This document shows, one piece after another, positions 2,578 through 62,288 of a stretch of DNA of 64,000 bases. The notes under the pieces were generated by a model. The model saw nothing but the letters and a program-made list of their open reading frames with translations, searched no databases and had not been told where the DNA came from. A program made the position numbers and the translations under genes. Within the stretch, counting starts at the first letter, position 1; every line of letters starts with the position of its first letter. The stretch comes from Candidatus Omnitrophota bacterium. GTDB lineage: Bacteria > Omnitrophota > Gorgyraeia > Zapsychrales > Zapsychraceae. The stretch is from NCBI GenBank assembly GCA_015233115.1, contig JADFYJ010000011.1, forward strand, positions 17,824 to 81,823. The letters run 5' to 3'.

Positions 2578-2608
2578 AAGTGGTAAAGGTGATAAAGGTG
2601 AGGTTGTA
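2578..2608. repeat. tandem heptamer array, GGTAAAG family
   Basis: The sequence ggtaaaggtgataaaggtgaggttgtag lies directly after the ACS stop codon. The same family recurs at 60375-60412. Confidence 0.7.
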
Positions 2609-2652
2609 GTAGGGGCGATCTCCTGATCGCCCGAATCAAAATTGGCGCTTTT
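2609..2652 (+). repeat. REP-like hairpin-terminator element (GTAGGGGCGATCTCCTGATCGCCCG + AACAAAATTATCGCTTTT tail), direct copy
   Basis: An 8-bp GC stem GGGCGATC/GATCGCCC with loop TCCT, followed by a conserved tail and a T-run. It belongs to a family of about 10 copies in this window. Confidence 0.8.
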
Positions 2653-2675
2653 GGGGTTGTTAAAATGATTTTAAA

Positions 2676-2709
2676 GCATTGATGCGGGCGATCAGGAGAT
2701 CGCCCCTAC
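2676..2709 (-). repeat. REP-like hairpin element, inverted copy
   Basis: The sequence gcattgatgcgggcgatcaggagatcgcccctac is the reverse complement of the family consensus. With the 2609-2652 copy it forms an inverted pair. Confidence 0.75.
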
Positions 2710-2755
2710 GAAAAAAACGTTGTTTTTTAAATAACGTATCATAGGAGAAAAAATC

Positions 2756-4372
2756 GTGGCAGAAATGAATAAAGAAAATATAAAACAAACTCAGCCTGTG
2801 CCTGGAACAACTGCGGTTAAAAGAAAGCTTATCAGGATGGTTGTTCCGGCATATGCCGCGTTTAACATTTATTCGGCTGTCGCGAATAAAACAACGGCTT
2901 TAGGTCCGGTGGCTTTGGCGACTGTGATCAACAAGATGGATGAATGGGACGTAGAGATCATTGATGAAAATAATCTGCGTCTTTACGGCCCTAAAGGATT
3001 TCCCCGGGGAGCTGACCACGAGTTTATTCAAAAAATCAGACCAGCGGATATGGTGGGCCTTTATGGCGGCTTAACCAGCACCATTCCTCGTTTATATGAA
3101 ATCGCGAAATTTTATAAAAGTCAGGGCGTATTTGTCATGGCCGGCGGCCAGCATTTTGCGGATGACAATATTGAAGAAGCGTTACGCTCCAATATTGACT
3201 TGGTTTGCACCGGCGAAGGCGAAGATACGGTGAGAGAATTTTTGACCGCGTATGCCCAGAATAAAGATTACAAAAATATTAAAGGTTTGGCTTTTCTTCA
3301 GAATAATAAATTAGTCATTAATCCGGAACGCGAACAGATTCAGGATCTGGACCGCTTACCTCTGCCAGATTTTTCTTTGGTGCGTTATGCCAAGATCACG
3401 CTGTATCCGATCGGACGTATCCGCGGTTGCGGTATGGATTGCGAATTTTGCACAGTTAAAGGAAAGCCGCGCTGCGCTTCACCGGAACATTTCATGGAAA
3501 ACATCCGTCATCTGGTCGAGACCCGTGACGCGAAACATTTCTTTATGGTGGATGACTTATTCGGTCAATACCGTAATGAGACGATCCGTTTTTGCAACAT
3601 GTTAAGGGATTATCAATTATCTATTGGCAAGCGTTTGGATTTTACAGCCCAGATTCGTTTGGATAAGGCGAAGGATACGGAATTATTAACGGCCATGCGT
3701 GAAGCCGCTATTAACGCGGTGGCTATTGGTTTTGAATCGCCGATTGAGGAAGAATTGATCGCGATGAAAAAACAAATCCGTCCGCAGGATATGGTGAATT
3801 TAGCGCGTATCTATCATAAATTCGGTTTTCTCGTCCACGGGATGTTTATTTTCGGTTATCCTCCGAAAGAAGGCGTGGAAAAGACGAATATGTCCATGGA
3901 GGAACGCGTTAAACGGTTTAAGAAATTTTTTAGAGATGCCAAGATCGATACTGTGCAAGTTTTACTGCCAGTGCCTTTACCTGGAACAGAGTTACGAGAC
4001 CGGTTAGTGAAACAGGGCCGGGTTTATCCTTTGGAACAGATTGGCTGGGAATATTATGACGGTAATTTTCCGATTTTTGAACCGGATCCGCCTATTACAG
4101 CAGAAGAATTACATTTGGCTGTGCGTAAAATCATGGGTCATTTTTATCAATATAAGTCAGTGCTCTGGGTGATTCTGCATACTTTCTCACTGCCGCATAT
4201 TGTATTTTTCTTCCACCATTTTAAAAAAGGCTGGGCGAGCTGGAAACGCCGCTGGAAGCATAGTTTATTGCGTATGGGCGGATGGGGTATTTTGTCCAAC
4301 TGGATCGCTGAATTCAACAAAAATCCGTTTTCGGAAAAATTGACTAAAGCCAAACAAGCACTAAAAAAGTAA
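2756..4372 (+). CDS. B12-binding domain radical SAM protein
   Basis: 538 aa. It has an N-terminal cobalamin-binding-like domain and a CxxxCxxC motif (GCGMDCEFC). GTG start is 8 nt after AGGAG. Confidence 0.75.
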   Translation: MAEMNKENIKQTQPVPGTTAVKRKLIRMVVPAYAAFNIYSAVANKTTALGPVALATVINKMDEWDVEIIDENNLRLYGPKGFPRGADHEFIQKIRPADMVGLYGGLTSTIPRLYEIAKFYKSQGVFVMAGGQHFADDNIEEALRSNIDLVCTGEGEDTVREFLTAYAQNKDYKNIKGLAFLQNNKLVINPEREQIQDLDRLPLPDFSLVRYAKITLYPIGRIRGCGMDCEFCTVKGKPRCASPEHFMENIRHLVETRDAKHFFMVDDLFGQYRNETIRFCNMLRDYQLSIGKRLDFTAQIRLDKAKDTELLTAMREAAINAVAIGFESPIEEELIAMKKQIRPQDMVNLARIYHKFGFLVHGMFIFGYPPKEGVEKTNMSMEERVKRFKKFFRDAKIDTVQVLLPVPLPGTELRDRLVKQGRVYPLEQIGWEYYDGNFPIFEPDPPITAEELHLAVRKIMGHFYQYKSVLWVILHTFSLPHIVFFFHHFKKGWASWKRRWKHSLLRMGGWGILSNWIAEFNKNPFSEKLTKAKQALKK

Positions 4373-4393
4373 CAGAGTAACCGAGTAACACAG
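4368..4393. repeat. tandem heptamer array, AGTAACA family
   Basis: The sequence agtaacagagtaaccgagtaacacag overlaps the stop codon of the radical SAM gene. Confidence 0.65.
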
Positions 4394-4396
4394 AAA

Positions 4397-4433
4397 AAGC
4401 GATTGATGCGGGCGATCGGGAGATCGCCCCTAC
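4397..4433 (-). repeat. REP-like hairpin element, inverted copy
   Basis: The sequence aagcgattgatgcgggcgatcgggagatcgcccctac. Confidence 0.75.
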
Positions 4434-4514
4434 AAAAGCGATAAAATATATTTGTTTTTTTCACCGCTTGCGGGTGTTCCTGGTGTTATGTTGGACATTG
4501 GTTTTTGTTTTTTT

Positions 4515-4560
4515 GTAGGGGCGATCTCCTGATCGCCCGTAAACAAAATTATCGGTTTTT
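4515..4560 (+). repeat. REP-like hairpin-terminator element, direct copy
   Basis: The sequence gtaggggcgatctcctgatcgcccgtaaacaaaattatcggttttt. Confidence 0.8.
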
Positions 4561-4627
4561 GTTTTATAAATTTTAAATTTTTTTTATCGGGAGGGTTTGT
4601 GCCCTCTCCAACAAGAAGGGATTTTGT

Positions 4628-7600
4628 ATGAGTGAGAATGTCAAAAAGATGGTAACTTTGGATGGGAACGAAGCGGTCGCAATGATCGCGCACAAATTGA
4701 GCGAAGTCATCGCGATTTATCCGATTACTCCGTCTTCCTCGATGGGGGAATGGGCGGACCAATGGACAGCGCAGAATCGCGTTAATCTTTGGGGGACTAT
4801 ACCTTTAGTGCAGGAAATGCAAAGCGAAGCTGGCGCTGCCGGGGCTGTTCACGGCGCGTTACAAACTGGTTCTTTGACGACCACGTTTACGGCTTCACAA
4901 GGTTTATTGCTCATGATTCCTAACATGTTTAAAATTGCCGGCGAGTTGACTCCGACGGTATTTCATGTTACTGCTCGTTCTTTAGCTACACAGGCTCTTT
5001 CGATTTTTGGCGACCATTCTGACGTTATGGCAACCCGTTCAACCGGTTTCGCGTTTTTAGTTTCTAATTCTGTTCAAGAAGCAATGGACATGGCTTTGAT
5101 CGCGCATGCCGCGACCTTAGAAGCCCGCGTTCCGATTATGCATTTTTTTGATGGTTTCCGTACTTCTCATGAAGTAGCTAAGATTGAGATTATTTCCGAC
5201 GATGTGATCCGTCAAATGATCAATGATGATTTTGTGACCCAACATCGTCAACGCGCTTTATCTCCGGATCATCCAGTATTACGTGGAACCGCGCAAAATC
5301 CTGACGTATATTTCCAGGGCCGCGAAACAGTAAATAAATATTACGACGCGTGCCCGGCGATTGTTCAGAAATACATGGATAAATTCGCGAAATTAACCGG
5401 ACGTCAATATTCCTTATATGAATATTACGGCGATCAAAACGCGGAAAATGTAGCTGTCATTATGGCTTCCGGCGCAGAAGCTTGCCAGGAAGCAATTGAT
5501 GTTTTGCGTCAAAAGGGTGAAAAGATTGGTGTGTTAAAAGTCAGATTATATCGTCCTTTCGCGATTGAGTCTTTCGTTAATGCGTTACCGAAAACGGTTA
5601 AGAAAATAGCGGTCATGGATCGCACGAAAGAACCGGGCGCTAATGGCGATCCGCTTTATTTAGATGTGATCAATGCTCTATATGAATTACGTAAAACCGG
5701 TAAAACCGCACTGGATCCTTTGGTTATTGGCGGTCGTTATGGTCTTTCGTCTAAAGAATTCACACCAGCTATGGTTAAGGCTATTTTTGATGAATTAAAG
5801 AAGGCTCAGCCGAAACATCATTTTACCGTCGGCATCAATGATGATGTCACGCATACCAGTTTAACGGTGGACGCTTCTTTTATTACTGAAGATCCTAAAG
5901 GTGTGCAGGCGATATTCTATGGTTTAGGTTCTGATGGTACTGTCGGAGCGAACAAGAATTCCATCAAAATTATCGGTGAAGAAACTCCGAATTTCGCGCA
6001 AGGTTATTTCGTGTATGATTCGAAAAAAGCCGGATCTGTCACAGTATCTCACTTGCGTTTCGGGCCGAATCCGATTCATTCCACTTATTTAGTATCAGCG
6101 GCGAATTTTGTGGCTTGCCATCAATTTTCGTTCCTGGAAAAATATGATTTGTTAAGTAAGACCAAAGAAGGCGGCGTGTTCCTTTTGAACAGCCCGTATC
6201 CAGCTGATAAGGTCTGGGATAAATTGCCGCTCGAAGTTCAACAACAAATCATCACCAAAAAATTGAAATTTTATGTCATTGATGGTTATGACGTCGCAGG
6301 CAAAACCGGCATGGGCGTGCGTATCAACACGATTATGCAAACCTGCTTCTTCGCGATTTCCGGCGTGCTTCCCAAAGATGAAGCGATTGCCGCCATTAAA
6401 TACGCGATCAAAAAAGAATATAGTAAAAAAGGGGAAGAGGTTGTTCAGAAGAATTATAACGCTGTTGATCAAACTCTTGAGAATTTACATGAAGTGAAAG
6501 TCCCGGCTACAGCGACCAGCACGATTGTGAAACCTCCGATCGTATCAGACAAAGCTCCGGCTTTTGTCAAAGATGTCTTGGCCGAAATTTTGCTTGGCCG
6601 CGGTGATGATATTCCAGTCAGTAAAATGCCGATTGACGGCACATTCCCTACGGGAACTGCGCAGTGGGAAAAACGTAATATCGCGCTGGAAATTCCGGTA
6701 TGGGATCCGCAAGTGTGTATTCAGTGCGGTAAATGTTCAGCCGTCTGTCCTCACGCGGTTATCCGTATGAAGGTGTATGATCCGAAATGTTTACAAGGCG
6801 CGCCTGTGACCTTCAAATCCATAGATTCCAAAGTGAAAGAATGGGAAGGCAAAAAATGCACGATCCAAGTTGCTGTCGAAGATTGTACCGGATGCGGGGC
6901 ATGCGTGTTTACTTGTCCGGCGAAAAACAAAGCGGATGAAACTAAAAAAGCGATTAACATGTCTCCCCAGATTCCGTTGCGCGAAACTGGAAAAGCGGAT
7001 TGGGAATTTTTCTTAGGGTTACCGGAATTAGATCGTAATTTAGTCAATAAATCTATGATCCGCACGATGGAAGTATTACAACCGTTATTCGAGTTCTCCG
7101 GCGCTTGCGCGGGTTGCGGGGAAACTCCGTATATCAAAATGGTTACCCAGTTATTCGGCGACCGTATGATTATCGGTAACGCAACCGGTTGTTCTTCCAT
7201 TTATGGCGGAAATTTACCGACGACACCATATACAAAAAATAACGAAGGCCGTGGTCCGGCATGGTCAAACTCCTTGTTCGAAGATTGCGCCGAATTTTCA
7301 CTCGGTTTCCGTTTATCCGTTGATAAACAATCGCAATATGCCGCGGAATTATTGAAAAAATTATCCGCCAAACTGGGCGATACTTTAACCACCGCGATTT
7401 TAACCGCGACTCAAAAAGATGAAGCGCAGATTTTTGAACAGCGTAAACGCGTGGCAGAAATGAAGCAAAAATTGCAGGGCGATTCTTCTGCGGAAGCCAA
7501 GCAGTTAATGGGTGTCGCGGATATGTTAGTCAAAAAGAGCGTATGGGCGTTCGGCGGCGACGGTTGGGCGTATGACATTGGTTACGGCGGTTTGGACCAT

Positions 7601-8179
7601 GTTATCGCTTCAGGTAAGAACGTCAACATTTTGGTTATGGATACTGAAGTCTATTCCAATACCGGCGGACAAGCTTCGAAATCAACTCCTCGCGGTGCTG
7701 TGGCAAAATTTGCTGCAGACGGAAAATGGACCGGGAAAAAAGATCTGGGCTTAATGGCGATTGCTTATGGCAACGTATATGTGGCGCAAGTTGCTATGGG
7801 AGCTAATGACGCGCAGACTGTTAAGGCGTTTACAGAGGCGGAAGCTTATGACGGTCCGTCCTTGATTTTAGCGTATTCTCATTGTATCGCGCATGGTATT
7901 AACATGACGACTGCCATGCAAGAACAAAAAAACGCGGTTTTATCCGGCCACTGGTTATTATACCGTTATAATCCTGAATTGGCAGCGCAAGGCAAGAATC
8001 CGTTAACAATTGATTCTCAAGCGCCGAAAATGTCATTCGCGGATTACGCCTACGGCGAAACCCGTTATAAGATGTTAATCAAACAGAATCCCGAACGCGC
8101 GAAACAATTAATCGAGTTAGCGCAAAAAGATACTGACCGTCAAATCAAGTTCTATCAGGGTTTGGCAGGGCAACAATAA
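4628..8179 (+). CDS. nifJ: pyruvate:ferredoxin (flavodoxin) oxidoreductase, single-chain homodimeric type
   Basis: 1183 aa with an N-terminus MSENVKKMVTLDGNEAVA. It has two ferredoxin-type CxxCxxCxxxCP motifs, a TPP-binding GDG motif and the typical NifJ/YdbK domain order. Confidence 0.92.
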   Translation: MSENVKKMVTLDGNEAVAMIAHKLSEVIAIYPITPSSSMGEWADQWTAQNRVNLWGTIPLVQEMQSEAGAAGAVHGALQTGSLTTTFTASQGLLLMIPNMFKIAGELTPTVFHVTARSLATQALSIFGDHSDVMATRSTGFAFLVSNSVQEAMDMALIAHAATLEARVPIMHFFDGFRTSHEVAKIEIISDDVIRQMINDDFVTQHRQRALSPDHPVLRGTAQNPDVYFQGRETVNKYYDACPAIVQKYMDKFAKLTGRQYSLYEYYGDQNAENVAVIMASGAEACQEAIDVLRQKGEKIGVLKVRLYRPFAIESFVNALPKTVKKIAVMDRTKEPGANGDPLYLDVINALYELRKTGKTALDPLVIGGRYGLSSKEFTPAMVKAIFDELKKAQPKHHFTVGINDDVTHTSLTVDASFITEDPKGVQAIFYGLGSDGTVGANKNSIKIIGEETPNFAQGYFVYDSKKAGSVTVSHLRFGPNPIHSTYLVSAANFVACHQFSFLEKYDLLSKTKEGGVFLLNSPYPADKVWDKLPLEVQQQIITKKLKFYVIDGYDVAGKTGMGVRINTIMQTCFFAISGVLPKDEAIAAIKYAIKKEYSKKGEEVVQKNYNAVDQTLENLHEVKVPATATSTIVKPPIVSDKAPAFVKDVLAEILLGRGDDIPVSKMPIDGTFPTGTAQWEKRNIALEIPVWDPQVCIQCGKCSAVCPHAVIRMKVYDPKCLQGAPVTFKSIDSKVKEWEGKKCTIQVAVEDCTGCGACVFTCPAKNKADETKKAINMSPQIPLRETGKADWEFFLGLPELDRNLVNKSMIRTMEVLQPLFEFSGACAGCGETPYIKMVTQLFGDRMIIGNATGCSSIYGGNLPTTPYTKNNEGRGPAWSNSLFEDCAEFSLGFRLSVDKQSQYAAELLKKLSAKLGDTLTTAILTATQKDEAQIFEQRKRVAEMKQKLQGDSSAEAKQLMGVADMLVKKSVWAFGGDGWAYDIGYGGLDHVIASGKNVNILVMDTEVYSNTGGQASKSTPRGAVAKFAADGKWTGKKDLGLMAIAYGNVYVAQVAMGANDAQTVKAFTEAEAYDGPSLILAYSHCIAHGINMTTAMQEQKNAVLSGHWLLYRYNPELAAQGKNPLTIDSQAPKMSFADYAYGETRYKMLIKQNPERAKQLIELAQKDTDRQIKFYQGLAGQQ

Positions 8180-8196
8180 TAAGGTCAAAAGCATTC

Positions 8197-8240
8197 GTAG
8201 GGGCGATCTCCTGATCGCCCGCAACAAAATTATCGCTTTT
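8197..8240 (+). repeat. REP-like hairpin-terminator element, direct copy
   Basis: The sequence gtaggggcgatctcctgatcgcccgcaacaaaattatcgctttt directly follows the PFOR gene. Confidence 0.8.
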
Positions 8241-8248
8241 AAATATAA

Positions 8249-8289
8249 CGGCAGGTGTTGGATGAAAATTCAACATCTGCCGTTTTTTT
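8249..8289 (+). terminator. rho-independent terminator
   Basis: The 12-bp hairpin cggcaggtgttg...caacatctgccg is followed by TTTTTTT. Confidence 0.75.
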
Positions 8290-8345
8290 GTGCATTTATA
8301 TGTTTCAATTTGTGCATAATTATTTGTTGTTTTGTGCATAATAAT
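8287..8345 (+). promoter_or_regulatory. three direct repeats TTTGTGCAT(A/T)(A/T) in the promoter region of the ATPase gene
   Basis: TTGTGCAT occurs at about 8288, 8309 and 8332 in an AT-rich region. This is a candidate operator or promoter array. Confidence 0.3.
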
Positions 8346-8374
8346 GTGCTATGCTTGTGTTCAAGGAGAAGGTC

Positions 8375-9595
8375 ATGAAATATATTACACGCTGGATGGA
8401 AGAAAAGATTGCCCGGACTCTGGAGGTGAATCCCGTTGTTGTTTTGACAGGTCCGAGACAAGTGGGTAAAAGTACCTTATTAGAGCATGCTGATTTTCTA
8501 AAAAGTTGGCGGTATTTGACCTTAGATGATTCGGACGTCTTAGAACAAGCCCAAGAGGATCCTAAAAGTTTACTTTGGGAAAATAGGCCCACTATTATTG
8601 ATGAGGTTCAAAGATGTCCGGAGCTTTTGTTAACGGTTAAGTATTTGGTAGACAAAACCAACAGAAAAAGAAACTTCATTTTATCCGGGTCAGGCAACAT
8701 TTCTTTACGCAAATCTCCCCGAGAAACTTTGGCGGGAAGAGTTAATTATCTGCATTTATCCGGTTTTGGTGCGAGAGAATTATGGGGGTTAGCCCCGCAT
8801 GGAATCTTAAGCCAAGTCTGGGAGGGCAAAGAAATTAAATTTGTGGAAATCCCTTTCCAGCCAGACATGACCCAAGTTGTTTGGCGGGGTAGTTTGCCTG
8901 GAGTCGTTTTGGCTTCTAGTGATAAAATAGCTTTGGAACGGGGAAAAAGTTATATTGATACGTATATTAGCCGGGATATTCAAGATCTGGTGAAGATACG
9001 GCATCCGCAAAATTTTCGTCGGTTAATGGAAGTTTTGGCACAAGCTACTGGATGGGAAAGTGTGCAGGAAGAATTATCTAAAGCCTGTGGAGAGACCAGA
9101 ACTAATGTCAGCCGGTATATAAGTCTTCTGCAAAATACGAATCTTTTATATGAATTAAGGGGGTACACATCTAAAGGGGAGAGAGCGTATAAACAGTCTA
9201 AATATTATTGGTTTGATTCCGGCGCGGCATGTTTATTAGCCGGCATTAATTCGCATGCAGAGTTTAACAAATTAAATATAAAGGGGCGTTATTTTGAAAA
9301 TTTTATTTTTCAACAAATTTATACCTGGGCGTCTTTAGAAACGGTTAGGCCTGAGATTTATTATTGGAAACCAAAGTCGGGAAGTGCGGAGGTTGATTTT
9401 GTAGTGCGCTCGACTGGTCAAGCAATAGGGGTGGAGGTAAAGTCATCGGATAAAATAGACTTTGGAAACACAAAATCAATGAGGGAGTTTCTGAAGACCC
9501 ATCCAGAAGTGAGTAAGGGTATTATCGTATATACAGGACGAAAAATTTTTCCTGTGGCCACAAATATATATGCAGTTCCTTGGGCCATGCTTTAG
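8375..9595 (+). CDS. AAA-family ATPase (DUF4143-type ATP-binding protein)
   Basis: It has a Walker A motif (LTGPRQVGKSTLL) and a C-terminal DUF4143-like region. AAGGAG lies 6 nt before ATG 8375, and an ORF extension to 8351 is also possible. Confidence 0.75.
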   Translation: MKYITRWMEEKIARTLEVNPVVVLTGPRQVGKSTLLEHADFLKSWRYLTLDDSDVLEQAQEDPKSLLWENRPTIIDEVQRCPELLLTVKYLVDKTNRKRNFILSGSGNISLRKSPRETLAGRVNYLHLSGFGARELWGLAPHGILSQVWEGKEIKFVEIPFQPDMTQVVWRGSLPGVVLASSDKIALERGKSYIDTYISRDIQDLVKIRHPQNFRRLMEVLAQATGWESVQEELSKACGETRTNVSRYISLLQNTNLLYELRGYTSKGERAYKQSKYYWFDSGAACLLAGINSHAEFNKLNIKGRYFENFIFQQIYTWASLETVRPEIYYWKPKSGSAEVDFVVRSTGQAIGVEVKSSDKIDFGNTKSMREFLKTHPEVSKGIIVYTGRKIFPVATNIYAVPWAML

Positions 9596-9744
9596 TCATC
9601 TTGAGGCCATTCCTCTCGCCCTTGGCCTGCCTCTTTTCAATCGGTGCCTATTTCTTAAAGTAACCGCTTTCTCAAAATCACCCTTCATATATTGCTTTCC
9701 TTTAATATATACCTAATACTTTATATAGGTGAGAAGGGGGCAAT

Positions 9745-54617: not shown

Positions 54618-54644
54618 TCGCCCGTAACAAAATTATCGCTTTTA
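54600..54644 (+). repeat. REP-like hairpin-terminator element, direct copy (loop variant CACC)
   Basis: The sequence gtaggggcgatcacctgatcgcccgtaacaaaattatcgctttt. Confidence 0.8.
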
Positions 54645-54678
54645 AAGTGTTTACTTGGTTACTTGGTTACTTTAAATT

Positions 54679-54800: not shown

Positions 54801-54847
54801 AGAGGTTTGATTAGTTTATAACATTCATGTTAGGATAAAATAAAGCT

Positions 54848-55303: not shown

Positions 55304-55314
55304 AGGAGAATAAA

Positions 55315-56088: not shown

Positions 56089-56095
56089 GAGAAAA

Positions 56096-56137
56096 AGTAC
56101 AAAGTAGAGAGTACAAAGTAGAGAGTACAGAGTAGAG
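56096..56137. repeat. three tandem copies of a 14-mer (AGTACAAAGTAGAG)
   Basis: The sequence agtacaaagtagagagtacaaagtagagagtacagagtagag. Confidence 0.75.
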
Positions 56138-56207
56138 TTTAGATGATAGGGAAAAATTATAAGCTAGATAATAACGACCCGGCAGGAAAATTCCAGCCGG
56201 GTTTTTT

Positions 56208-56672
56208 CTATAAGAATTCTTTTAAAAGTACAAGTGCCTGTTTCGCTGCTTGTTTTTTGATTTCCAAGCGGCTTCCTTTAAACTTACATTTCAGGCAAAG
56301 TGTGCCATAATCCATGGATAGGGCGATAAAGGTGAGTCCAACAGGTTTGGTTTTTGTGCCTCCGGTTGGTCCAGCGATACCGGTTATGGCTAAACCAAAG
56401 TCTGTTTTAAATAGATTTCTGACGTTTTGGGCCATGATAGTCGCGGTTTCTTCGCTGACTGCGCCGTGTTTTTTAATGATTTTAACTGGCACTTTCAGGA
56501 TTTTGATTTTGGCTTCATTGCTGTAAGCAATAATAGAGCATTTTAAAAAAGCAGAACTGCCCGAAATATTGGTCAAAAGATTCGTGACCAATCCTCCGGT
56601 ACAGGACTCCGCCAGACTTAAGGTTTTTTTCGTATCTATAAGAATTTCAGCAACTTTTCGATCTAAGAACAT
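56208..56672 (-). CDS. CinA C-terminal domain protein (PncC-type nicotinamide-nucleotide amidohydrolase)
   Basis: It carries the motif LSLAESCTGGLVTNLLTNISGSS. Confidence 0.8.
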   Translation of the reverse strand: MFLDRKVAEILIDTKKTLSLAESCTGGLVTNLLTNISGSSAFLKCSIIAYSNEAKIKILKVPVKIIKKHGAVSEETATIMAQNVRNLFKTDFGLAITGIAGPTGGTKTKPVGLTFIALSMDYGTLCLKCKFKGSRLEIKKQAAKQALVLLKEFL

Positions 56673-56758
56673 GAAGCTATTATATGAAGGGACAAAAGCC
56701 TTGACAAGGGCTAATATTTAAAATATATTACAACATCATTTTAGAAATAAGCTTATAA

Positions 56759-56971
56759 GTGTATGTAGTATATGGCATGTAGTATGTAGTGAAAAAATTT
56801 AAAAATGCCAAATCAAAAATGATAGGATTAAGTCGCGATCCGTATTAAGGTAGAACAAATAAAAAAACTAAAACATTACAAGTGATTGCAAATCGCAATT
56901 ATATTGCTTTTGGTTTTTTATTATAAATTTTCGCTTTTACTACATACAACATACTACGGGCTACATACTAA
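56759..56971. repeat. inverted pair of GTATGTR heptamer arrays (56759-56791 and 56938-56971) enclosing the ribBA promoter region
   Basis: The left arm is gtgtatgtagtatatggcatgtagtatgtagtg. The right arm is tttactacatacaacatactacgggctacatacta. Confidence 0.8.
56876..56904 (+). promoter_or_regulatory. candidate ribBA promoter (TTACAA, 17-nt spacer, TTATAT) with the embedded palindrome ATTGCAAATCGCAAT
   Basis: The palindrome at 56885-56899 overlaps the promoter spacer. No FMN riboswitch is recognisable here. Confidence 0.4.
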
Positions 56972-56998
56972 CAAAATTTATTAATTAGTGAGGGAAAA

Positions 56999-58198
56999 AT
57001 GTTTAATACTATTGAAGATGTTTTGCAGGATCTCCGTGAAGGAAAAATGGTTGTGGTCATGGATGACGAAGGCCGCGAGAATGAAGGCGATGTTTTATGC
57101 GCGGCGCAGTTTATTACTCCGGAAAAGATCAATTTTATGGCGCGTTATGCCCGCGGGTTGGTTTGTATTCCTATGACTGAAGACCGTTTAAATGAATTAG
57201 ATCTTCATCCCATGAAAGTGAATTTACACAGCCGGCATCAACGATGTGATACTGGCTGGGCGATATCTGTGGATGCGGCTCATGGTATAACAACTGGGAT
57301 TTCAGCTGGCGATCGGGCTTATACTACTCAGGTGTTAATTGATCCTAAATCTAAATCCGGCGACTTGATTACTCCCGGCCATTTGTTTCCATTACGCGCG
57401 GTTAAAGGCGGGGTTATGGTTCGCGCTGGACATACTGAAGCATCAGTTGACTTGACCCGTTTGGCTGGACTATATCCTGCCGGGGTTATTTGCGAGATTA
57501 TGAATGATGACGGAACAATGGCCCGCACGGAACAATTAACCCAGTTTGCTAAAAAACATCATTTAAAGATCTGTACGATTGATAGTCTGATTGAATATTT
57601 ACAGCAAAAAGAAAAGTTGATTGAGCGTATTGCTGAAACCAATATGCCGACCAGACATGGCGATTTCAAATTGTATGCTTATGAAACCACAGTTGACGAT
57701 TTGGTGCATATGGCATTAGTGATGGGTAATATTAATGATCATAAACCTGTGTTAGTCCGCGTTCAATCTGAATGTTTGACTGGCGACGTATTTGGTTCAT
57801 TGCGTTGTGATTGCAACGGCCAGTTGGAACATGCTTTTGAAGCGATTGCCAAAGAGGGCCGGGGCATTTTGTTATACATGAGACAAGAAGGCCGCGGAAT
57901 TGGATTAGCCAATAAATTGCGCGCGTATCATTTGCAGGATAATGGGATGGATACTGTGGAAGCTAATGAAGCTTTAGGGTTTGGCCCGGATTTACGAAAA
58001 TATGGTATGGGCGCGCAGATTTTGGCGGATTTAGGCGTAAAAGATTTGCGTTTATTGACTAATAATCCTCGTAAGATTGTTGGGTTAGAAGGTTTTGGTC
58101 TCAAAGTGGTGGAACGCGTCAGTTTACAGGTTCCGACTCACAAAGCCAATGAAAAATACATGAAGACCAAAAAAGAAAAATTGGGGCATATTCTATAA
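56999..58198 (+). CDS. ribBA: bifunctional 3,4-dihydroxy-2-butanone-4-phosphate synthase / GTP cyclohydrolase II
   Basis: 399 aa. It has an N-terminal DHBP synthase region (RENEGDVLCAAQFITPEKINFMA) and a C-terminal GTP cyclohydrolase II region (CDCNGQLE). Confidence 0.92.
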   Translation: MFNTIEDVLQDLREGKMVVVMDDEGRENEGDVLCAAQFITPEKINFMARYARGLVCIPMTEDRLNELDLHPMKVNLHSRHQRCDTGWAISVDAAHGITTGISAGDRAYTTQVLIDPKSKSGDLITPGHLFPLRAVKGGVMVRAGHTEASVDLTRLAGLYPAGVICEIMNDDGTMARTEQLTQFAKKHHLKICTIDSLIEYLQQKEKLIERIAETNMPTRHGDFKLYAYETTVDDLVHMALVMGNINDHKPVLVRVQSECLTGDVFGSLRCDCNGQLEHAFEAIAKEGRGILLYMRQEGRGIGLANKLRAYHLQDNGMDTVEANEALGFGPDLRKYGMGAQILADLGVKDLRLLTNNPRKIVGLEGFGLKVVERVSLQVPTHKANEKYMKTKKEKLGHIL

Positions 58199-58207
58199 AC
58201 AGTTATA

Positions 58208-58330
58208 GCGCGCGGTTGGGACGGTTTGCATTAAAACCAAATCCCTCGCTCAAACAGCAGCTCCGAAGCGGAGCTGAACTCGCTCTAGGATTCGGTTTTA
58301 ACGCCAACCTTAGTTTTTTTACGCGCGGTT
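58208..58330 (+). repeat. structured element of about 122 nt, copy 4 (covariant central hairpin)
   Basis: It has the same arms as copies 1 to 3. The central hairpin is replaced by cagctccg-aag-cggagctg, a different stem sequence with the same geometry. Confidence 0.8.
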
Positions 58331-58336
58331 TTTCTC

Positions 58337-58380
58337 GTAGGGGCGATCACCTGATCGCCCGCAACAAAATTATCGCTTTT
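58337..58380 (+). repeat. REP-like hairpin-terminator element, direct copy
   Basis: The sequence gtaggggcgatcacctgatcgcccgcaacaaaattatcgctttt. Confidence 0.8.
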
Positions 58381-58407
58381 TTGTTAAGAGAAAATTAATT
58401 TTAAATT

Positions 58408-58890
58408 ATGCAAACAATACAGTCAAAAAATAGCGGTAAAGGTTTTAGGATTGGGATAGTCGTATCTCGATTTAATGAGCATATTACGAATCGATTGCTG
58501 GATGGTTGTTTGGATGAATTAACGAAGCTGGGTGTGAAGAAGAATGATGTGACTGTGGTATGGGTTCCGGGTGCGTTTGAGATTCCTTTGGTGAGTGTTG
58601 AGTTAGCTAAGAAAAAAAATATTGATGCGGTGATATGTTTAGGTGCTATTGTTAAAGGGGAAACTCTGCATTATGATTTAGTCGCGAATGAGAGCGCGAG
58701 AGGCATTGCGCAGGCATCACTGATGACTGGCAAGCCTGTGATCTTTGAAGTATTGGCGGCAGATACCATGTTATTGGTTGAGAAGCGCGCGCAAGTTAAA
58801 GGTGACAACAAGGGCCGCGATGCAGCCAAGGCGGCAGTTGAGATGATTGATGTTATGAAAAAGATAAAAAATGCCGTATGTAGTATGTAG
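58408..58890 (+). CDS. ribH: 6,7-dimethyl-8-ribityllumazine synthase
   Basis: It carries the motif GFRIGIVVSRFNEHITNRLLDG...VWVPGAFEIP. The last codons and the stop run into the heptamer array. Confidence 0.9.
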   Translation: MQTIQSKNSGKGFRIGIVVSRFNEHITNRLLDGCLDELTKLGVKKNDVTVVWVPGAFEIPLVSVELAKKKNIDAVICLGAIVKGETLHYDLVANESARGIAQASLMTGKPVIFEVLAADTMLLVEKRAQVKGDNKGRDAAKAAVEMIDVMKKIKNAVCSM

Positions 58891-59112
58891 CATGTGGTAT
58901 GTGGATGAAGCGATTGGTGAAAAAACGTAGTGGATTTATAAATATTCTTTTTTCGAAAAAAGCAATTAAATGGAACAAGACATCGATAAAAAAATTTAAA
59001 TTAAACATATTAACAATCAGTTTTTGATTTTATGGATTTTTTTTGTGTCTTTTGTTTTTTTTAGACCAAATTAATTTTTTTACTACATACGACATACCAC
59101 ATACTACATACT
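58876..59112. repeat. inverted pair of GTATGTR heptamer arrays (58876-58905 and 59082-59112) bracketing the ribH-nusB intergenic region
   Basis: The left arm is gtatgtagtatgtagcatgtggtatgtgg. The right arm is actacatacgacataccacatactacatact. Confidence 0.8.
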
Positions 59113-59129
59113 TTTAGGACAAAACAAAC

Positions 59130-59558
59130 ATGCGAAAACGAAGTTTAGCCCGGGAACATGCTTTAAAAATTATGTATCAGGCCGAAATTAACCGTCGTCC
59201 GATGAGTGTATCGACTGGTATTTATTGGGGAGAAAATTTAGAAGAAAAAGATCATACGATTATAGATTTTTGTGACCGCTTGATCAATGGCATTGAACAG
59301 AATGTCGATAAAATCGACGCGGAAATTTCCAAGTATACAGAAAACTGGCAATTGAAGCGTATGGCTGTGATTGACCGGAATGTTTTACGCTTGGGCGTGT
59401 ATGAAATTTTAATGACCTCGGATATCCCTCCTAAAGTGACGATAAACGAAGCCGTGGAATTAGCCAAAAAATATGGCGATATGGAATCCGGCAAATTCGT
59501 AAACGGGATCTTGGATAAGATCCACAAAACTGAAAACATGAGCCACAAGACCATATGA
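59130..59558 (+). CDS. nusB: transcription antitermination factor NusB
   Basis: It carries the motifs REHALKIMYQAEIN...AVIDRNVLRLGVYEIL. Confidence 0.85.
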   Translation: MRKRSLAREHALKIMYQAEINRRPMSVSTGIYWGENLEEKDHTIIDFCDRLINGIEQNVDKIDAEISKYTENWQLKRMAVIDRNVLRLGVYEILMTSDIPPKVTINEAVELAKKYGDMESGKFVNGILDKIHKTENMSHKTI

Positions 59559-60379
59559 GCCGGTTTGCAGATCTTCATCTCCATACAAATTATTCAGACA
59601 GTACCTTCTCTCCTGAAGAAGTCGTTAATCAAGCGAAAACCGCGGGTATAGAGTGCATTGCTATCACGGATCATGATACAGTTGAGGCGGTTGCTTTAGC
59701 ATCTGAAGCGGGACAAAAATGCGGTATTGAAATTTTGCCTGGAATTGAATTATCGTCGGAAATTAATGGCAGGGAAGTCCATATTTTAGGATATCTTTTT
59801 GACTACCAGTCAGATTATGTTTTGAATTTTTTTAATTTAATGCAAAAAGAACGTTTGTCGCGCATGAAAAAAATGATCCTTAAGTTAAAAGAATTAGGAA
59901 TCAATAATATAGAATTTGAGGAAGTGTGCGCATTGACGAAAACGAATGCTGTGGGCCGGGCGCATTTGGCGCGTTTATTGTTAAAGAAGGGCTGGGTGAA
60001 GTATATTGGTGAGGCGTTTGAGAAATATTTGGCTGAAGGCAAACCGGTTTACTATCCTAAATATAAAATGACACCGTATGAAGCCATTGACATGATCAGA
60101 AAAGCGGGCGGTGTTCCGGTATTGGCACATCCGGCTGTAACAAGAACGGATGAATTGATCCCCAGTTTTGTGGAAGCAGGCCTTAAAGGTATTGAAGTTT
60201 TTTATCCCATGGTTCCCAAAGCCGGCATTGATTATTATAATGGTTTAGCAACCAAGTACGGGCTGATCGCGACAGGCGGATCAGATACGCATGGCACTAT
60301 CAAGCCGGATATTTATATCGGCATTATTAAATTGCCATATGAAAAAGTGGAACAGATGAAAGCGATTGTAAAGGGGTAA
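59555..60379 (+). CDS. PHP-domain phosphoesterase (TrpH/YciV-like)
   Basis: The N-terminal motif FADLHLHTNYSD and downstream His/Asp PHP motifs are present. ATGA overlap with nusB. Confidence 0.75.
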   Translation: MSRFADLHLHTNYSDSTFSPEEVVNQAKTAGIECIAITDHDTVEAVALASEAGQKCGIEILPGIELSSEINGREVHILGYLFDYQSDYVLNFFNLMQKERLSRMKKMILKLKELGINNIEFEEVCALTKTNAVGRAHLARLLLKKGWVKYIGEAFEKYLAEGKPVYYPKYKMTPYEAIDMIRKAGGVPVLAHPAVTRTDELIPSFVEAGLKGIEVFYPMVPKAGIDYYNGLATKYGLIATGGSDTHGTIKPDIYIGIIKLPYEKVEQMKAIVKG

Positions 60380-60412
60380 AGGGGTAAAGGTGGTAAAGGT
60401 GATAAAGGAAAA
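60375..60412. repeat. tandem heptamer array, GGTAAAG family
   Basis: The sequence aaaggggtaaaggggtaaaggtggtaaaggtgataaagg overlaps the PHP stop codon and the annotated ribD start. Confidence 0.7.
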
Positions 60413-61535
60413 CACGATTGATGGAAAAGCGACGGGTTTAAACATGAACGATGAACTATTTATGCAACGAGCGCTGGAATTGGCATTACAGGGCAAAGGG
60501 TATACTTCGCCTAATCCGATGGTCGGGGCGGTGATTGTAAAGAATAATAAGGTCATAGCAGAAGGATTTCATGCCCGTTGCGGGGAAGATCACGCGGAAA
60601 CTGCGGCTTTGAAAAAATGTAAAGGGAACGTGGCTAAAGGCGCTACTTTGTATGTGAACTTAGAGCCATGTTTTCATGAAGGCCGGACTCCGCCTTGCGT
60701 GGACGCGGTCATAGCGGCAGGTATCAAAGAAGTTGTTATCGCTATGAAAGACCCTAACCCTTTGACTAATGGCAAATCAATCCGAAAACTCAATAACGCA
60801 GGCATTACGACTCGGGTGGGAATTTTGGGGGATCAAGCGGGCCGTTTGAATGAAGCGTTTGTGAAATTTATTAAAGAAGGCATGCCGTTTGTGGTCGCGA
60901 AAGTGGCGCAGACGATTGATGGGAAAATAGCGACCACAGCGCGGGATTCCATGTGGATCACTTCTGAAAAAACCCGCGAAATGAGCCGCACCGTGCGCGC
61001 TGAATTTGACGCGATTTTAGTCGGCGTCAATACCATGATGGTGGATGATCCGCGGCTTGAACCTCAGGACGCCAAAAAAGTTTTAAAGAAAATCATCGTG
61101 GATACCCGTCTCAGGGTGCCGCTTATTTCTAAGATTTTTAAAAAACCTGAGCAATGCATCGTGGCTACGACCAACAAGGCTGCCCTCAGCCAAATCTCTT
61201 TATTAAAGCACAAAGGGATTGAGGTGATAGTCTGTCCGGTGAGGAATAATAAAGTTGATTTGAAATGGCTTTTCAAAGAATTAGCGAAAGAAAACATCAC
61301 GAGCATTTTGATCGAGGGCGGTTCTGAAGTAATCGGCAGCGCGCTGAAAGAAGGGCTGGTCGATAAAATGCATATTTATATTGCTCCGAAAATTGTGGGC
61401 GATCAAAAAGCGCTCAGTTCTGTGACGGGCATGAATATTTCAAAAATAGAAGAGGCCTTGCAATTAAAAGATTTACAGGTATTATATTTTCATCCAGATA
61501 TAAGGATTGAAGGTTATGTTCTCAGGAATAGTTGA
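60390..61535 (+). CDS. ribD: bifunctional diaminohydroxyphosphoribosylaminopyrimidine deaminase / 5-amino-6-(5-phosphoribosylamino)uracil reductase
   Basis: It has the deaminase zinc motifs (HAE...PCxxC) and a C-terminal reductase domain. The true start may be ATG 60444 (MNDELFMQRALELA). The first 18 codons of the 60390 ORF are the heptamer array. Confidence 0.88.
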   Translation: MVKVIKENTIDGKATGLNMNDELFMQRALELALQGKGYTSPNPMVGAVIVKNNKVIAEGFHARCGEDHAETAALKKCKGNVAKGATLYVNLEPCFHEGRTPPCVDAVIAAGIKEVVIAMKDPNPLTNGKSIRKLNNAGITTRVGILGDQAGRLNEAFVKFIKEGMPFVVAKVAQTIDGKIATTARDSMWITSEKTREMSRTVRAEFDAILVGVNTMMVDDPRLEPQDAKKVLKKIIVDTRLRVPLISKIFKKPEQCIVATTNKAALSQISLLKHKGIEVIVCPVRNNKVDLKWLFKELAKENITSILIEGGSEVIGSALKEGLVDKMHIYIAPKIVGDQKALSSVTGMNISKIEEALQLKDLQVLYFHPDIRIEGYVLRNS

Positions 61536-62199
61536 AGAAACAGGGATTGTTCAGAAAATTGATCAAAAGCCGAATTTGCACACGCTTTTTATTAAAGGCC
61601 GCAAAGTGCTGGAAGATGCCAATGCCGGTGATAGTATTTGCGTGAGCGGCGTGTGTTTGACTGTGACCAAGCGGATTAGTGATGTGCTGGTTTTTGATAT
61701 CATGTTAGAGACAATCCGTAAGACCACCTTAGGCGTCTTGAAACCGGGCAGCCGGGTGAATTTGGAGCGCGCCTTGAAGATGGAAAGCCGGATCAGCGGT
61801 CATTTTGTAAGCGGTCACGTGGACCAGATGGAAACGATCAAGGATGTGGTTACTGGTGAGAATTACACCGAATTAAGAATTACAGTCAGTCCATCATTAA
61901 AAAAATATATCGTGCCAAAAGGGTCAGTTTGTTTAGACGGCGTGAGTTTAACCGTCGGTGATGTACGAAAAAATGATTTCTCCGTGTATTTAATCCCTTT
62001 CACGCTGGACGTGACCACTTTGGGGTTGAACAAAAAAGGGGATTCCATTAATATTGAGACTGATATTTTAGCCAAATATGTGCTGGCAGCCCAAGCAGGT
62101 AAAAATGTATCGCCGTATTCGGCAGTTAAAAAGGTCACAAAGTCACAAGGGCACAAGGTCACAAAGGGAAATAAAGATAAGAAAAAAAACAAATTTTAG
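61507..62199 (+). CDS. ribE: riboflavin synthase alpha chain
   Basis: The sequence MFSGIVEETG... is present, and the domain with the C-terminal half is duplicated. The C-terminal 25 aa (KKVTKSQGHKVTKGNKDKKKNKF) are encoded by a heptamer array. Confidence 0.88.
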   Translation: MKVMFSGIVEETGIVQKIDQKPNLHTLFIKGRKVLEDANAGDSICVSGVCLTVTKRISDVLVFDIMLETIRKTTLGVLKPGSRVNLERALKMESRISGHFVSGHVDQMETIKDVVTGENYTELRITVSPSLKKYIVPKGSVCLDGVSLTVGDVRKNDFSVYLIPFTLDVTTLGLNKKGDSINIETDILAKYVLAAQAGKNVSPYSAVKKVTKSQGHKVTKGNKDKKKNKF

Positions 62200-62288
62200 A
62201 AAGCTGGTTTATTTTAAATTTTTTATTTTATGTTAAGTTTTTAATTTTTGTCTTTTTGTGACCTTGTGACTTTGTGTCCTTGCGACCT
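62133..62288. repeat. inverted pair of GTCACAA heptamer arrays (62133-62167 inside the ribE 3' end and 62257-62288)
   Basis: The left arm is ggtcacaaagtcacaagggcacaaggtcacaaagg. The right arm is tgtgaccttgtgactttgtgtccttgcgacc. Confidence 0.8.

What the first reader, a model, noticed from the sequence alone, without database searches (positions are those of the whole stretch)
2578..62288. Intergenic regions bracketed by inverted pairs of 7-nt tandem-repeat arrays
At least eleven intergenic regions carry the same arrangement. It is a tandem array of 3 to 6 heptamer units, then an AT-rich spacer of 30 to 250 nt that contains the promoter or RBS of the next gene, then the reverse complement of the array. 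The families are reused along the window. GTATGTR occurs at 20316/20486, 51487/51590, 56759/56938 and 58876/59082, with singles at 26268 and 27957. AGTAACA or GTGACAG occurs at 33035/33314 and 34874/34964, with singles at 4368 and 18387. TGGTTTT or TGGTTGA occurs at 39076/39491, 40144/40202 and 49089/49138, with a single at 30282. GTCAGAA occurs at 52562/52704 with a single at 26151. GTCACAA occurs at 62133/62257. Further single arrays use GGTAAAG, AAATAGC, ATAGGCN and a 14-mer. The spacers are all different, so these are not copies of one MITE. The arms are the conserved part. In a read-through transcript each pair would form a long imperfect stem around the intercistronic region, which resembles the RNase III processing stems that flank rRNAs. 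Alternatively the arrays could be repeated binding sites for a DNA- or RNA-binding protein. A 7-nt periodicity with inverted symmetry at this density is not a standard annotated feature class.
Basis: seen in the sequence. Interest (0 to 1): 0.85.

Follow-up and report, generated by a model that had tools for sequence, protein, structure and literature searches.

The report
Heptamer-array hairpin insertions between genes
Eleven gene junctions in this uncultured Omnitrophota genome carry insertions whose two ends are mirror-image runs of 7- or 8-base repeats, the same design as the "intervening sequences" that ribonuclease III cuts out of 23S ribosomal RNA; this ties together several bacterial repeat classes whose function is unknown.

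Summary
The window has 38 short-period tandem arrays and 11 inverted pairs. Dinucleotide shuffles give 2.3 arrays and no pairs. Eight pairs have period 7 and three have period 8.

That link is general. Of 80 IVP genes from unrelated metagenomes, 46 have period-7 or period-8 arrays on both sides, and 53 have complementary flanks above every control. The same holds for most of the cyanobacterial plasmid copies examined and for a true 23S rRNA helix-45 intervening sequence in Azospirillum.

A syntenic relative (FtsK 82% identical) has tiny or overlapping junctions where the window has pairs. The pairs are therefore insertions, some inside operons such as ftsK-rodZ-miaB and ribH-nusB.

My best reading is that they are IVS-type foldback elements, one with its gene and ten without. 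Their arms should form 21-46 bp RNA stems, which RNase III cuts in Coxiella. Cutting was not tested here.

Heptamer arrays and inverted pairs are already published for cyanobacteria (STRR) and Xanthomonas. This is a new variant in a new phylum. I did not find the IVP link in the literature I could search.

The parts
39074..39526 (+). Full element P39. Arm 1 is 39074-39115 (TGGTTGA/TGGTTTT, period 7). The IVP gene is 39133-39489 (118 aa, PF05635). Arm 2 is 39485-39526. It sits between a 105-aa gene (stop at 39072) and a 60-aa gene (start at 39529).
   Evidence: Arms are 42 nt and 88% complementary. Pfam 23S_rRNA_IVP, E 3e-36. PDB 2GSC, E 1.5e-16. The element is absent from relative L081, where the same junction is 19 nt.
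20315..20516 (.). Pair P20, GTATGTR family, period 7. Arms 20315-20350 and 20482-20516. It lies between two minus-strand genes.
   Evidence: Fold z -7.9, 33 arm-arm pairs.
33026..33357 (.). Pair P33, GTRACAG family, period 8. Arms 33026-33072 and 33309-33357. It lies between the pyruvate phosphate dikinase gene and a sigma-factor gene. An extra arm-2-like array sits at 33220-33242.
34866..35003 (.). Pair P34, GTRACAG family, period 8. Arms 34866-34914 and 34959-35003. It lies between a phosphoribosyltransferase gene (stop at 34865) and tRNA-Arg(CCT) at 35007-35081.
   Evidence: 44 arm-arm pairs, z -7.6. In L081 the tRNA follows the stop codon by about 7 nt.
40143..40240 (.). Pair P40, TGGTTKW family, period 7. 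Arms 40143-40172 and 40198-40240. It lies between convergent genes.
49088..49170 (.). Pair P49, TGGTTKW family, period 7. Arms 49088-49126 and 49135-49170. It lies between the PNPase and FtsK genes.
   Evidence: L081 has an unrelated 64-nt junction here.
51484..51620 (.). Pair P51, GTATGTR family, period 7. Arms 51484-51523 and 51591-51620. It lies between ftsK and rodZ.
   Evidence: In L081 ftsK and rodZ overlap.
52556..52740 (.). Pair P52, GTCAGAA family, period 7. Arms 52556-52590 and 52705-52740. It runs from 1 nt after the rodZ stop codon to 3 nt before the miaB start codon.
   Evidence: z -8.5. The L081 junction is 15 nt.
56757..56972 (.). Pair P56, GTATGTR family, period 7. Arms 56757-56794 and 56935-56972. 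It lies upstream of ribBA, in a divergent intergenic region.
   Evidence: (I11, I12). Arm 2 is too degenerate for TRF to report.
58872..59116 (.). Pair P58, GTATGTR family, period 7. Arms 58872-58904 and 59081-59116. It lies between ribH and nusB. The array supplies the last 7 codons and the stop codon of ribH.
   Evidence: The L081 junction is 3 nt. The RibH C-terminal extension is shown.
62131..62288 (.). Pair P62, GTCACAAR family, period 8. Arms 62131-62166 and 62255-62288.
   Evidence: 46 arm-arm pairs, z -7.7.
26149..26284 (.). Heterologous pair. A GTCAGAA array at 26149-26172 faces a YACATAC array at 26270-26284.
2575..60408 (.). Unpaired intergenic arrays. 5'-arm type: 2575-2601 (period 9), 4368-4390 (8), 24900-24919 (7), 27969-27992 (7), 56094-56137 (7/14), 60368-60408 (9). 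3'-arm type: 18386-18432 (8), 30274-30317 (7), 40669-40738 (7), 54651-54672 (8).

Best explanation
The paired arrays are the two ends of small foldback insertion elements. These are of the same kind as the S23p/IVP-type intervening sequences (IVS) of 23S rRNA. One copy (39074-39526) still carries the four-helix-bundle IVP gene. The other ten have only a short, unrelated AT-rich loop.

The elements have been inserted exactly between the stop codon of one gene and the start of the next, often inside operons. When the operon is transcribed, the G-rich 5' arm and the C-rich 3' arm pair into an imperfect stem of 21-46 bp. This loops the insert out and brings the stop and start codons next to each other. 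The stem is a natural substrate for RNase III, which cuts such stems in rRNA. Either way the insertion is tolerated.

Shown here: the anatomy, the insertion status, the cross-phylum link between IVP genes and inverted heptamer arrays, and the predicted stems.

Inferred: RNase III cleavage in this organism, and the common origin of the gene-less pairs with the gene-bearing one.

Unknown: how the elements spread, and why their arms are tandem 7- or 8-mers.
For: 1. IVP genes and arrays go together.
- The gene inside P39 is PF05635.
- Its closest homologues on seven unrelated contigs all abut inverted heptamer arrays. They sit inside operons such as gatC-[IVP]-gatA and next to hem genes.
- Of 80 IVP loci from metagenomes, 55 have an array upstream, 65 downstream and 46 on both sides. 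Flank complementarity reaches 30 or more in 53 of 80, against a control mean near 15.5 and a control maximum of 27.
- The strict detector finds 40 pairs that enclose the gene.
- The periods of these arrays are 7 (103 arrays) or 8 (12 arrays), never 6, 9 or 10. Their median length is 30 nt.

2. Cultured organisms show the same. Examples are Nostoc punctiforme, Anabaena 90 (cas6-[IVP]-cas4), Picosynechococcus (cmr2-[IVP]-cmr3) and Calothrix. In Azospirillum lipoferum the element lies inside a 23S rRNA gene (RF02541, 2537 bits).

3. [quoted passage not shown]

4. The pairs are insertions. The syntenic relative L081 lacks P34, P39, P49, P51, P52 and P58. Its junctions there are 3-19 nt or overlapping.

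5. Both arms of every pair belong to the same family. Within-family scores are about 22 and cross-family scores 5.5. P39 shares its family with the gene-less pairs P40 and P49.

6. Gene-less pairs of the same family as the local IVP element occur in other IVP-bearing loci.

7. All 11 pairs fold into arm-arm stems, z -4.3 to -8.5.
Against: - The ten gene-less spacers hold no trace of an IVP gene (tblastn, profile search).
- No target-site duplication was seen, and the window encodes no transposase.
- There is no pair-specific covariation and no G.U over A.C bias, so selection on an RNA stem is not demonstrated.
- About a dozen arrays are unpaired and one pair is heterologous. A simple 'element with two ends' model does not explain these.
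- About a quarter of the IVP loci show weak or no arrays. In Pseudanabaena the flanking arrays are direct repeats, not inverted.
- Loss in L081, rather than gain in the window lineage, cannot be formally excluded from a single relative.
Confidence: 0.55

Rival explanations
1. The arrays are primarily repeated binding sites for a protein, on DNA or on RNA. The obvious candidate is the IVP pentamer itself. The inverted arrangement would then reflect symmetric binding, and stem formation would be incidental.
For: - The arrays keep a narrow size: the peak is 4-5 units and the median 30 nt, with an interquartile range of 27-33 nt. That fits a homopentamer (2GSC; PMC4990558).
- Period 7 or 8 is conserved across phyla while the unit sequence varies.
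- The arms have a consistent polarity, G-rich at the 5' end and C-rich at the 3' end. This holds for 10 of 11 window pairs, and for 40 of 51 upstream and 50 of 60 downstream arrays next to IVP genes.
- Unpaired arrays exist.
- A Nostoc preprint reports regulatory effects of heptamer repeats with an unidentified binding partner.
Against: - At least five unrelated unit families coexist in 64 kb, but the window has only one IVP gene.
- What is conserved within each junction is complementarity between the arms.
- No binding data exist for IVP proteins outside diversity-generating retroelements.
Confidence: 0.2
2. The arrays are functionless products of replication slippage at sequences prone to form hairpins. 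They are homogenised by recombination and are merely tolerated at gene ends.
For: - Heptamers are the simple repeats reported as over-represented in bacteria, possibly through polymerase slippage (PMC4692102).
- Copy number varies among Coxiella strains.
- There is no pair-specific covariation and no wobble bias.
Against: - Slippage does not explain why both arms of all 11 pairs share a family.
- It does not explain why the same inner boundary, GTATGTAGTGAAAA, is kept in a relative that is about 18% diverged at the protein level.
- It does not explain why whole units of 100-450 nt appear at junctions that are 3-19 nt in that relative.
- It does not explain why one protein family is enclosed in 40 or more independent loci.
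Confidence: 0.15
3. Each pair is an insulator cassette. A long bidirectional terminator hairpin ends the upstream transcript, and a promoter in the AT-rich spacer restarts transcription for the next gene.
For: - A-runs precede arm 1 and T-runs follow arm 2 in P33, P34, P52 and P58.
- P40 lies between convergent genes.
- A short AT motif, AAAAAATTTAAAT, recurs in several spacers.
Against: - The loops are 15-382 nt, far longer than in intrinsic terminators.
- Promoter-like sites are not enriched, and none of the strong ones lies in the spacers of P49, P51, P52, P58 or P62.
- P34 would cut tRNA-Arg off from its only apparent transcript.
- The arms enclose the supposed promoter, so the restarted RNA would lack arm 1.
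Confidence: 0.1

Closest known systems
S23p/IVP-type intervening sequences of 23S rRNA (Leptospira, Coxiella, Azospirillum; Ralph and McClelland 1993, Warrier et al. 2016)
   Same: - Terminal inverted repeats form a long stem around a PF05635 four-helix-bundle ORF.
- The arms are built from tandem heptamers: GACAGAT in Coxiella and GAGGACG/GTCTTCT in Azospirillum.
- Copies with and without the ORF both exist.
- The elements are regarded as selfish.
   Different: - The window copies lie between protein-coding genes or next to a tRNA gene, not in helix 25 or 45 of 23S rRNA.
- Ten of the eleven have no ORF.
- Several unit families coexist.
- RNase III excision has not been shown for them.
Cyanobacterial STRR (short tandemly repeated repetitive) heptamers, including the hupS-hupL hairpins
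   Same: - Intergenic tandem heptamers present in many copies.
- Some are paired and form hairpins between co-transcribed genes.
- Their function is unknown. Transcript stability and translational coupling have been proposed (PMC2670836).
   Different: - The phylum differs (Omnitrophota) and so do the unit sequences.
- Period 8 also occurs here.
- The papers I could read do not link STRR to IVP genes. Here that link is seen in Nostoc, Anabaena and Calothrix plasmids.
Xanthomonas GGGAATC heptamer arrays (Rehm et al. 2015)
   Same: - About 186 intergenic heptamer arrays per genome.
- 70-75 of them are convergent pairs that could form stem-loops.
- The type of repeat (single or paired) is conserved between species while its length varies.
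   Different: - Xanthomonas has a single G-rich family that was studied as a G-quadruplex former.
- The window arrays are not G4-prone and belong to five or more families.
- No gene content was reported for the Xanthomonas pairs.
Beggiatoaceae, cyanobacterial and Bacteroidetes TAACTGA direct repeats (MacGregor 2015)
   Same: Intergenic heptamer arrays of 2-6 units that end a few nucleotides before start codons of genes lacking Shine-Dalgarno sites. The 3' arms here sit in the same position.
   Different: Almost all of those repeats are unpaired; one inverted case is reported. Only one unit sequence is involved.
Foldback transposons and MITEs
   Same: Long terminal inverted repeats made of short tandem subrepeats, with a variable loop. 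Copies exist with and without a coding region.
   Different: - This is an analogy recalled from eukaryotic elements, not a tested relationship.
- No transposase, no target-site duplication and no shared internal sequence were found.

Membership tests
S23p/IVP-type intervening sequence (IVS) | Terminal inverted repeats that form a long stem around the element | tested here: met
   Arms are 25-49 nt and 72-97% complementary. Predicted stems are 21-46 bp, z -4.3 to -8.5.
S23p/IVP-type intervening sequence (IVS) | Encloses an ORF of the 23S_rRNA_IVP family (PF05635) | tested here: inconclusive
   Met for 39074-39526 (E 3e-36). Not met for the other ten pairs, which hold no remnant. IVS without an ORF are known.
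S23p/IVP-type intervening sequence (IVS) | Inserted in helix 25 or 45 of a 23S rRNA gene | tested here: not met
   Rfam finds only two tRNAs in the window. The pairs lie between protein-coding genes.
S23p/IVP-type intervening sequence (IVS) | Excised from the transcript by RNase III | not testable with these tools
   This needs mapping of RNA ends. It has been shown only for Coxiella and other rRNA IVS.
STRR / bacterial heptamer arrays | Tandem heptanucleotide units, intergenic, many copies per genome | tested here: met
   38 arrays in 64 kb against 2.3 in shuffles. Nearly all lie at gene boundaries. Some have period 8 or 9.
STRR / bacterial heptamer arrays | Heterocystous cyanobacterial host and the canonical units CCCCAGT, TTGGTCA and CAACAGT (units recalled from memory) | tested here: not met
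   The host is Omnitrophota. There is no HIP1 octamer. The units here are GTATGTR, GTRACAG, TGGTTKW, GTCAGAA and GTCACAA.
MITE | Copies share internal sequence and have target-site duplications | tested here: not met
   The spacers are unrelated. No direct repeat was seen flanking the arms.
Intrinsic terminator | Short G+C-rich hairpin with a small loop, followed directly by a U-run | tested here: not met
   The loops are 15-382 nt and the arms are AT-rich. The terminator scan does not call the pairs.

The most novel reading that the evidence does not exclude
IVP genes and their inverted 7/8-mer arrays would form one unrecognised, cross-phylum class of selfish element. It would unite 23S rRNA intervening sequences, cyanobacterial STRR, the Xanthomonas heptamer pairs and these Omnitrophota insertions. 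The pentameric IVP, a relative of the Avd protein that partners the reverse transcriptase of diversity-generating retroelements, would bind the array of roughly five units. It would promote spread or maintenance of the element, possibly through the RNA excised by RNase III.
Probability: 0.3. Interest if true: 0.85.

Novelty: new variant of a known kind. Interest (0 to 1): 0.62.

Why it matters
Intergenic heptamer arrays have been catalogued since 1990 in cyanobacteria, and later in Xanthomonas, Beggiatoaceae and Bacteroidetes. No function or origin has been agreed. The four-helix-bundle IVP family is large and unexplained, and it has been mistaken for a CRISPR-associated gene because it sits inside cas operons.

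The two belong together in 80 loci, in cultured cyanobacteria and in a genuine rRNA intervening sequence. This gives one concrete hypothesis for both. It can be tested in tractable organisms such as Nostoc, Anabaena and Xanthomonas.

For annotation, it explains insertions of 100-450 nt that split conserved operons. It also explains why IVP genes so often sit on very short contigs.

Tried and rejected
- **Cyanobacterial origin.** Suggested by a GATCGCC-rich palindrome. Rejected: no HIP1 octamer and the proteins are from Omnitrophota.
- **RNA-strand selection through wobble pairs.** G.U 18 against A.C 15, so no signal.
- **Pair-specific compensatory change.** Within-pair score 22.7 against cross-pair 22.2, so no signal.
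- **Period 7/8 units acting as stops in all three reading frames.** 29 of 51 arrays do this, against 66% expected from permuted units. The window arms rarely stop all frames. Rejected.
- **Gene-less spacers as decayed IVP genes.** No hit by tblastn or by profile search.
- **Promoters in the spacers.** No enrichment.
- **Look-ups of the window's own contig by exact protein.** Both failed.
- **First IVP alignment.** It was too diverse for the locus scan.
- **Last homologue search.** I meant to query the pyruvate:ferredoxin oxidoreductase gene (4628-8179) but entered the AAA_14/DUF4143 ATPase at 8351-9595, which looks promiscuous. The search did not extend synteny with L081. It only gave two further Omnitrophota loci, neither with arrays.
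- **Literature searches for a published IVP-heptamer link.** They found only the Coxiella note on heptamers.


Full report
**What is in the sequence.**
Tandem Repeats Finder lists dozens of short-period arrays. The inverted-repeat scan pairs them up. I wrote a detector using TRF periods 7, 8, 9 and their multiples, at least two G/C per unit, and a reverse-complement partner within 600 nt. It finds 38 arrays and 10 distinct pairs. An eleventh pair (56757/56935) has a degenerate second arm and is seen only. Forty dinucleotide-preserving shuffles give a mean of 2.3 arrays and never a pair.

- Three pairs (P33, P34, P62) and several single arrays have period 8, and two single arrays have period 9.
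- The gaps between arms are 15-382 nt.
- One array (26149, GTCAGAA) faces an arm of another family (26270, YACATAC).
- About ten intergenic arrays have no partner.

Aligned arms are 85% complementary.

**Where the window comes from.**
The genes are housekeeping genes of an anaerobe: pyruvate:ferredoxin oxidoreductase, pyruvate phosphate dikinase, PNPase, FtsK, RodZ, MiaB, RibBA and NusB. PNPase and FtsK place the window in Candidatus Omnitrophota. The FtsK protein is identical to one from an NCBI MAG contig of 89.8 kb.

Pair 39074/39485 does not enclose a spacer. It encloses a 118-aa ORF (39133-39489) of Pfam family 23S_rRNA_IVP, E 3e-36. This ORF matches the solved pentameric four-helix-bundle protein XCC0516 (2GSC, E 1.5e-16).

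**The pairs are insertions.**
The closest genome I could reach is L081 (GCA_015233195.1). Its FtsK is 82% identical and its other proteins are 52-92% identical, and it is collinear with the window from the dikinase gene to ribD. Where the window has pairs, L081 has almost nothing:

| Junction | L081 | Window |
|---|---|---|
| ftsK / rodZ | genes overlap | 211 nt |
| rodZ / miaB | 15 nt | 188 nt |
| ribH / nusB | 3 nt | 239 nt |
| 105-aa gene / 61-aa gene | 19 nt | 456 nt, including the IVP gene |
| stop codon / tRNA-Arg | about 7 nt | 141 nt |

In ribH the array supplies the last seven codons and the stop codon.

The arms abut the coding regions.
- Arm 1 starts 1-4 nt after the stop codon in P34, P39, P51 and P52, and overlaps the stop codon in P33.
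- Arm 2 ends 3-13 nt before the next start codon, or before the tRNA, in P33, P34, P39, P52 and P58.

L081 has one short GTATGTA array followed by the same inner boundary, GTGAAAAA..AAAGCGAAT. The family is therefore older than the split between the two genomes, but it has expanded only in the window lineage. Eighty PNPase loci from other genomes and two further Omnitrophota loci lack pairs.

**The link between IVP genes and arrays is general.**
- The nearest IVP homologues sit on unrelated metagenome contigs of 36-48% G+C. All of them abut inverted heptamer arrays, for example GTTAATG/TTAACCA, ATAGCTG or GGTTGAT/ATAAACC, and GTCGATG/ATCGACC.
- They sit inside conserved operons such as gatC-[IVP]-gatA and hemB-[IVP]. 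One identical protein occurs in two contexts with different outer units.
- A scan of JGI metagenomes returned 80 further loci. An array lies upstream in 55, downstream in 65 and on both sides in 46.
- The alignment of the upstream flank against the reverse complement of the downstream flank scores 30 or more in 53 of 80 loci. Controls in the same loci average about 15.5 and never exceed 27.
- The strict detector finds 40 pairs that enclose the gene. It also finds gene-less pairs of the same family elsewhere in five of the loci.
- The flanking arrays have period 7 (103) or 8 (12), never 6, 9 or 10. They peak at 4-5 units, with a median of 30 nt.

In the plasmid collection, 25 records hold an IVP relative, mostly from Nostocales.
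- I read the flanks of eight. Four cyanobacterial copies have inverted arrays: Nostoc punctiforme (TCAGGAG x7.6/CTCCTGA), Anabaena 90 (between cas6 and cas4), Picosynechococcus (8-mers, between cmr2 and cmr3) and Calothrix.
- Two Nostoc PCC 7120 copies have only a downstream array.
- Pseudanabaena has direct rather than inverted flanking arrays.
- The Azospirillum lipoferum hit lies inside a 23S rRNA gene (RF02541, 2537 bits). It is flanked by GAGGACG x3.9 and GTCTTCT x4.1. The classical rRNA intervening sequence therefore has the same design.

**What is already published.**
- **Coxiella IVS:** a selfish element in helix 45 with an S23p ORF and a 28-bp terminal stem. [quoted passage not shown] Tandem GACAGAT heptamers vary in number among strains (PMC4990558).
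- **Cyanobacterial STRR:** 7-bp repeats that can form hairpins between genes such as hupS and hupL. Their function is unknown (PMC2670836).
- **Xanthomonas:** about 186 GGGAATC arrays per genome, 70-75 of them as convergent pairs (PMC4692102).
- **Beggiatoaceae, cyanobacteria and Bacteroidetes:** TAACTGA arrays just upstream of start codons (PMC4679880).
- **IVP genes in cas loci:** noticed and read as possibly CRISPR-related (PMC3936711).

None of the papers I could search connects IVP genes with flanking heptamer arrays as a general rule. Most subscription-journal papers were not searchable.

**How it most likely works.**
All eleven pairs are predicted to fold into arm-arm stems of 21-46 bp, with z-scores from -4.3 to -8.5. 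The values are similar on the opposite strand. In a read-through transcript the stem would loop out the insert and place the stop codon of one gene next to the start codon of the next. Such a stem is long enough for RNase III. The relative's junctions are overlapping or tiny, which implies co-transcription, so some such neutralising mechanism is needed. This step is inferred, not shown.

**Tests that gave no support for selection on an RNA stem.**
- G.U and A.C mismatches are balanced, 18 against 15.
- Partner arms are no more complementary than non-partner arms of the same family, 22.7 against 22.2. Arms of different families score 5.5.

Matching at the family level in all eleven pairs fits elements that spread as units from a few master sequences. 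It does not fit stems maintained one by one.

**Other negative results.**
- The spacers are unrelated to each other.
- They hold no IVP remnants.
- Sigma-70-like promoters are not enriched overall, and none of the strong ones lies in spacers P49, P51, P52, P58 or P62.
- The idea that period 7/8 exists to place stop codons in all three frames failed against a permuted-unit control.

**Unexplained.**
- The 5' arm is G-rich and C-poor and the 3' arm is the reverse. This holds in 10 of 11 window pairs and in about 80% of the arrays next to IVP genes.
- It is not known why the unit is 7 or 8 nt, how the arrays arise, or what IVP does.
- The narrow size of about 4-5 units and the pentameric protein invite a binding model, which I rank second.

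**Verdict.**
The RNase III idea is supported by homology with rRNA intervening sequences but was not tested here. The promoter idea is not supported. The feature class is not new, but this is a new variant of it: in mRNA junctions, mostly gene-less, with several unit families, in a new phylum. The general association between IVP genes and these arrays appears to be unreported in the literature I could search.

Noticed in passing
window 2613-2632, 2686-2705, 4410-4429, 4519-4538, 8201-8220, 24951-24970, 54604-54623, 58341-58360: A second repeat class: GTAGGGGCGATC-NNNN-GATCGCCC hairpins, often followed by AAACAAAATTATCGCTTTT. There are eight copies against 0.02 expected. Two inverted doublets (2604-2714 and 4409-4539) look like REP/REPIN elements, with a GTAG head plus a palindrome. 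Three copies sit next to unpaired heptamer arrays. The relative L081 has GTAGGGGC-headed hairpins with a different stem, and a Y1_Tnp gene at L081:16869-17525.
   Followed up: partly
window 8351-9595: An AAA_14/DUF4143 ATPase gene. It has homologues about 70-80% identical on more than 100 contigs, most of them very short, labelled Omnitrophota, Planctomycetota and Chlamydiota. It is probably a mobile gene. A REP-like hairpin lies just upstream at 8201.
   Followed up: partly
window 40669-46276: A block of about 5.5 kb that is absent from the syntenic relative L081. It holds a 1669-aa protein (40775-45784) with an alanine dehydrogenase/PntA-like domain, and a 111-aa ORF. It is preceded by the longest array in the window (AAATAGC x7.4, then AAAACCA x3).
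   Followed up: no
window 20358, 24996, 58989, 62209 (rc), 43275 (rc), 4568: A 13-16 nt AT motif (AAAAAATTTAAAT) recurs exactly in several spacers that are otherwise unrelated. It could be a promoter element or a site for a nucleoid protein.
   Followed up: no
window, all 11 pairs; L097-L176: The arms have a fixed polarity. The 5' arm is G-rich and C-poor, and the 3' arm is C-rich and G-poor. This holds in 10 of 11 window pairs and in about 80% of the arrays flanking IVP genes. Because the arms are inverted repeats, it holds on either strand.
   Followed up: partly
window 1-64000: Nearly all genes are on the + strand and the GC skew is positive in all but one 2-kb bin (40001-42000, slightly negative). 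The 105-aa protein at 38755-39072 has an orthologue in L081 with a weak MamF_MmsF hit.
   Followed up: no
L084 and L085/L086: The identical IVP protein (P0129) occurs in two contexts around a hem operon. The inner heptamers and the downstream arm are identical, but the outer upstream units differ (ATAGCTG against GGTTGAT). This suggests that the outer units turn over or derive from the target site.
   Followed up: partly
L093, L094, L095: IVP elements sit inside cas operons of cultured cyanobacteria: cas6-[IVP]-cas4 and cmr2-[IVP]-cmr3. This may explain why the family was earlier proposed to be CRISPR-associated.
   Followed up: partly
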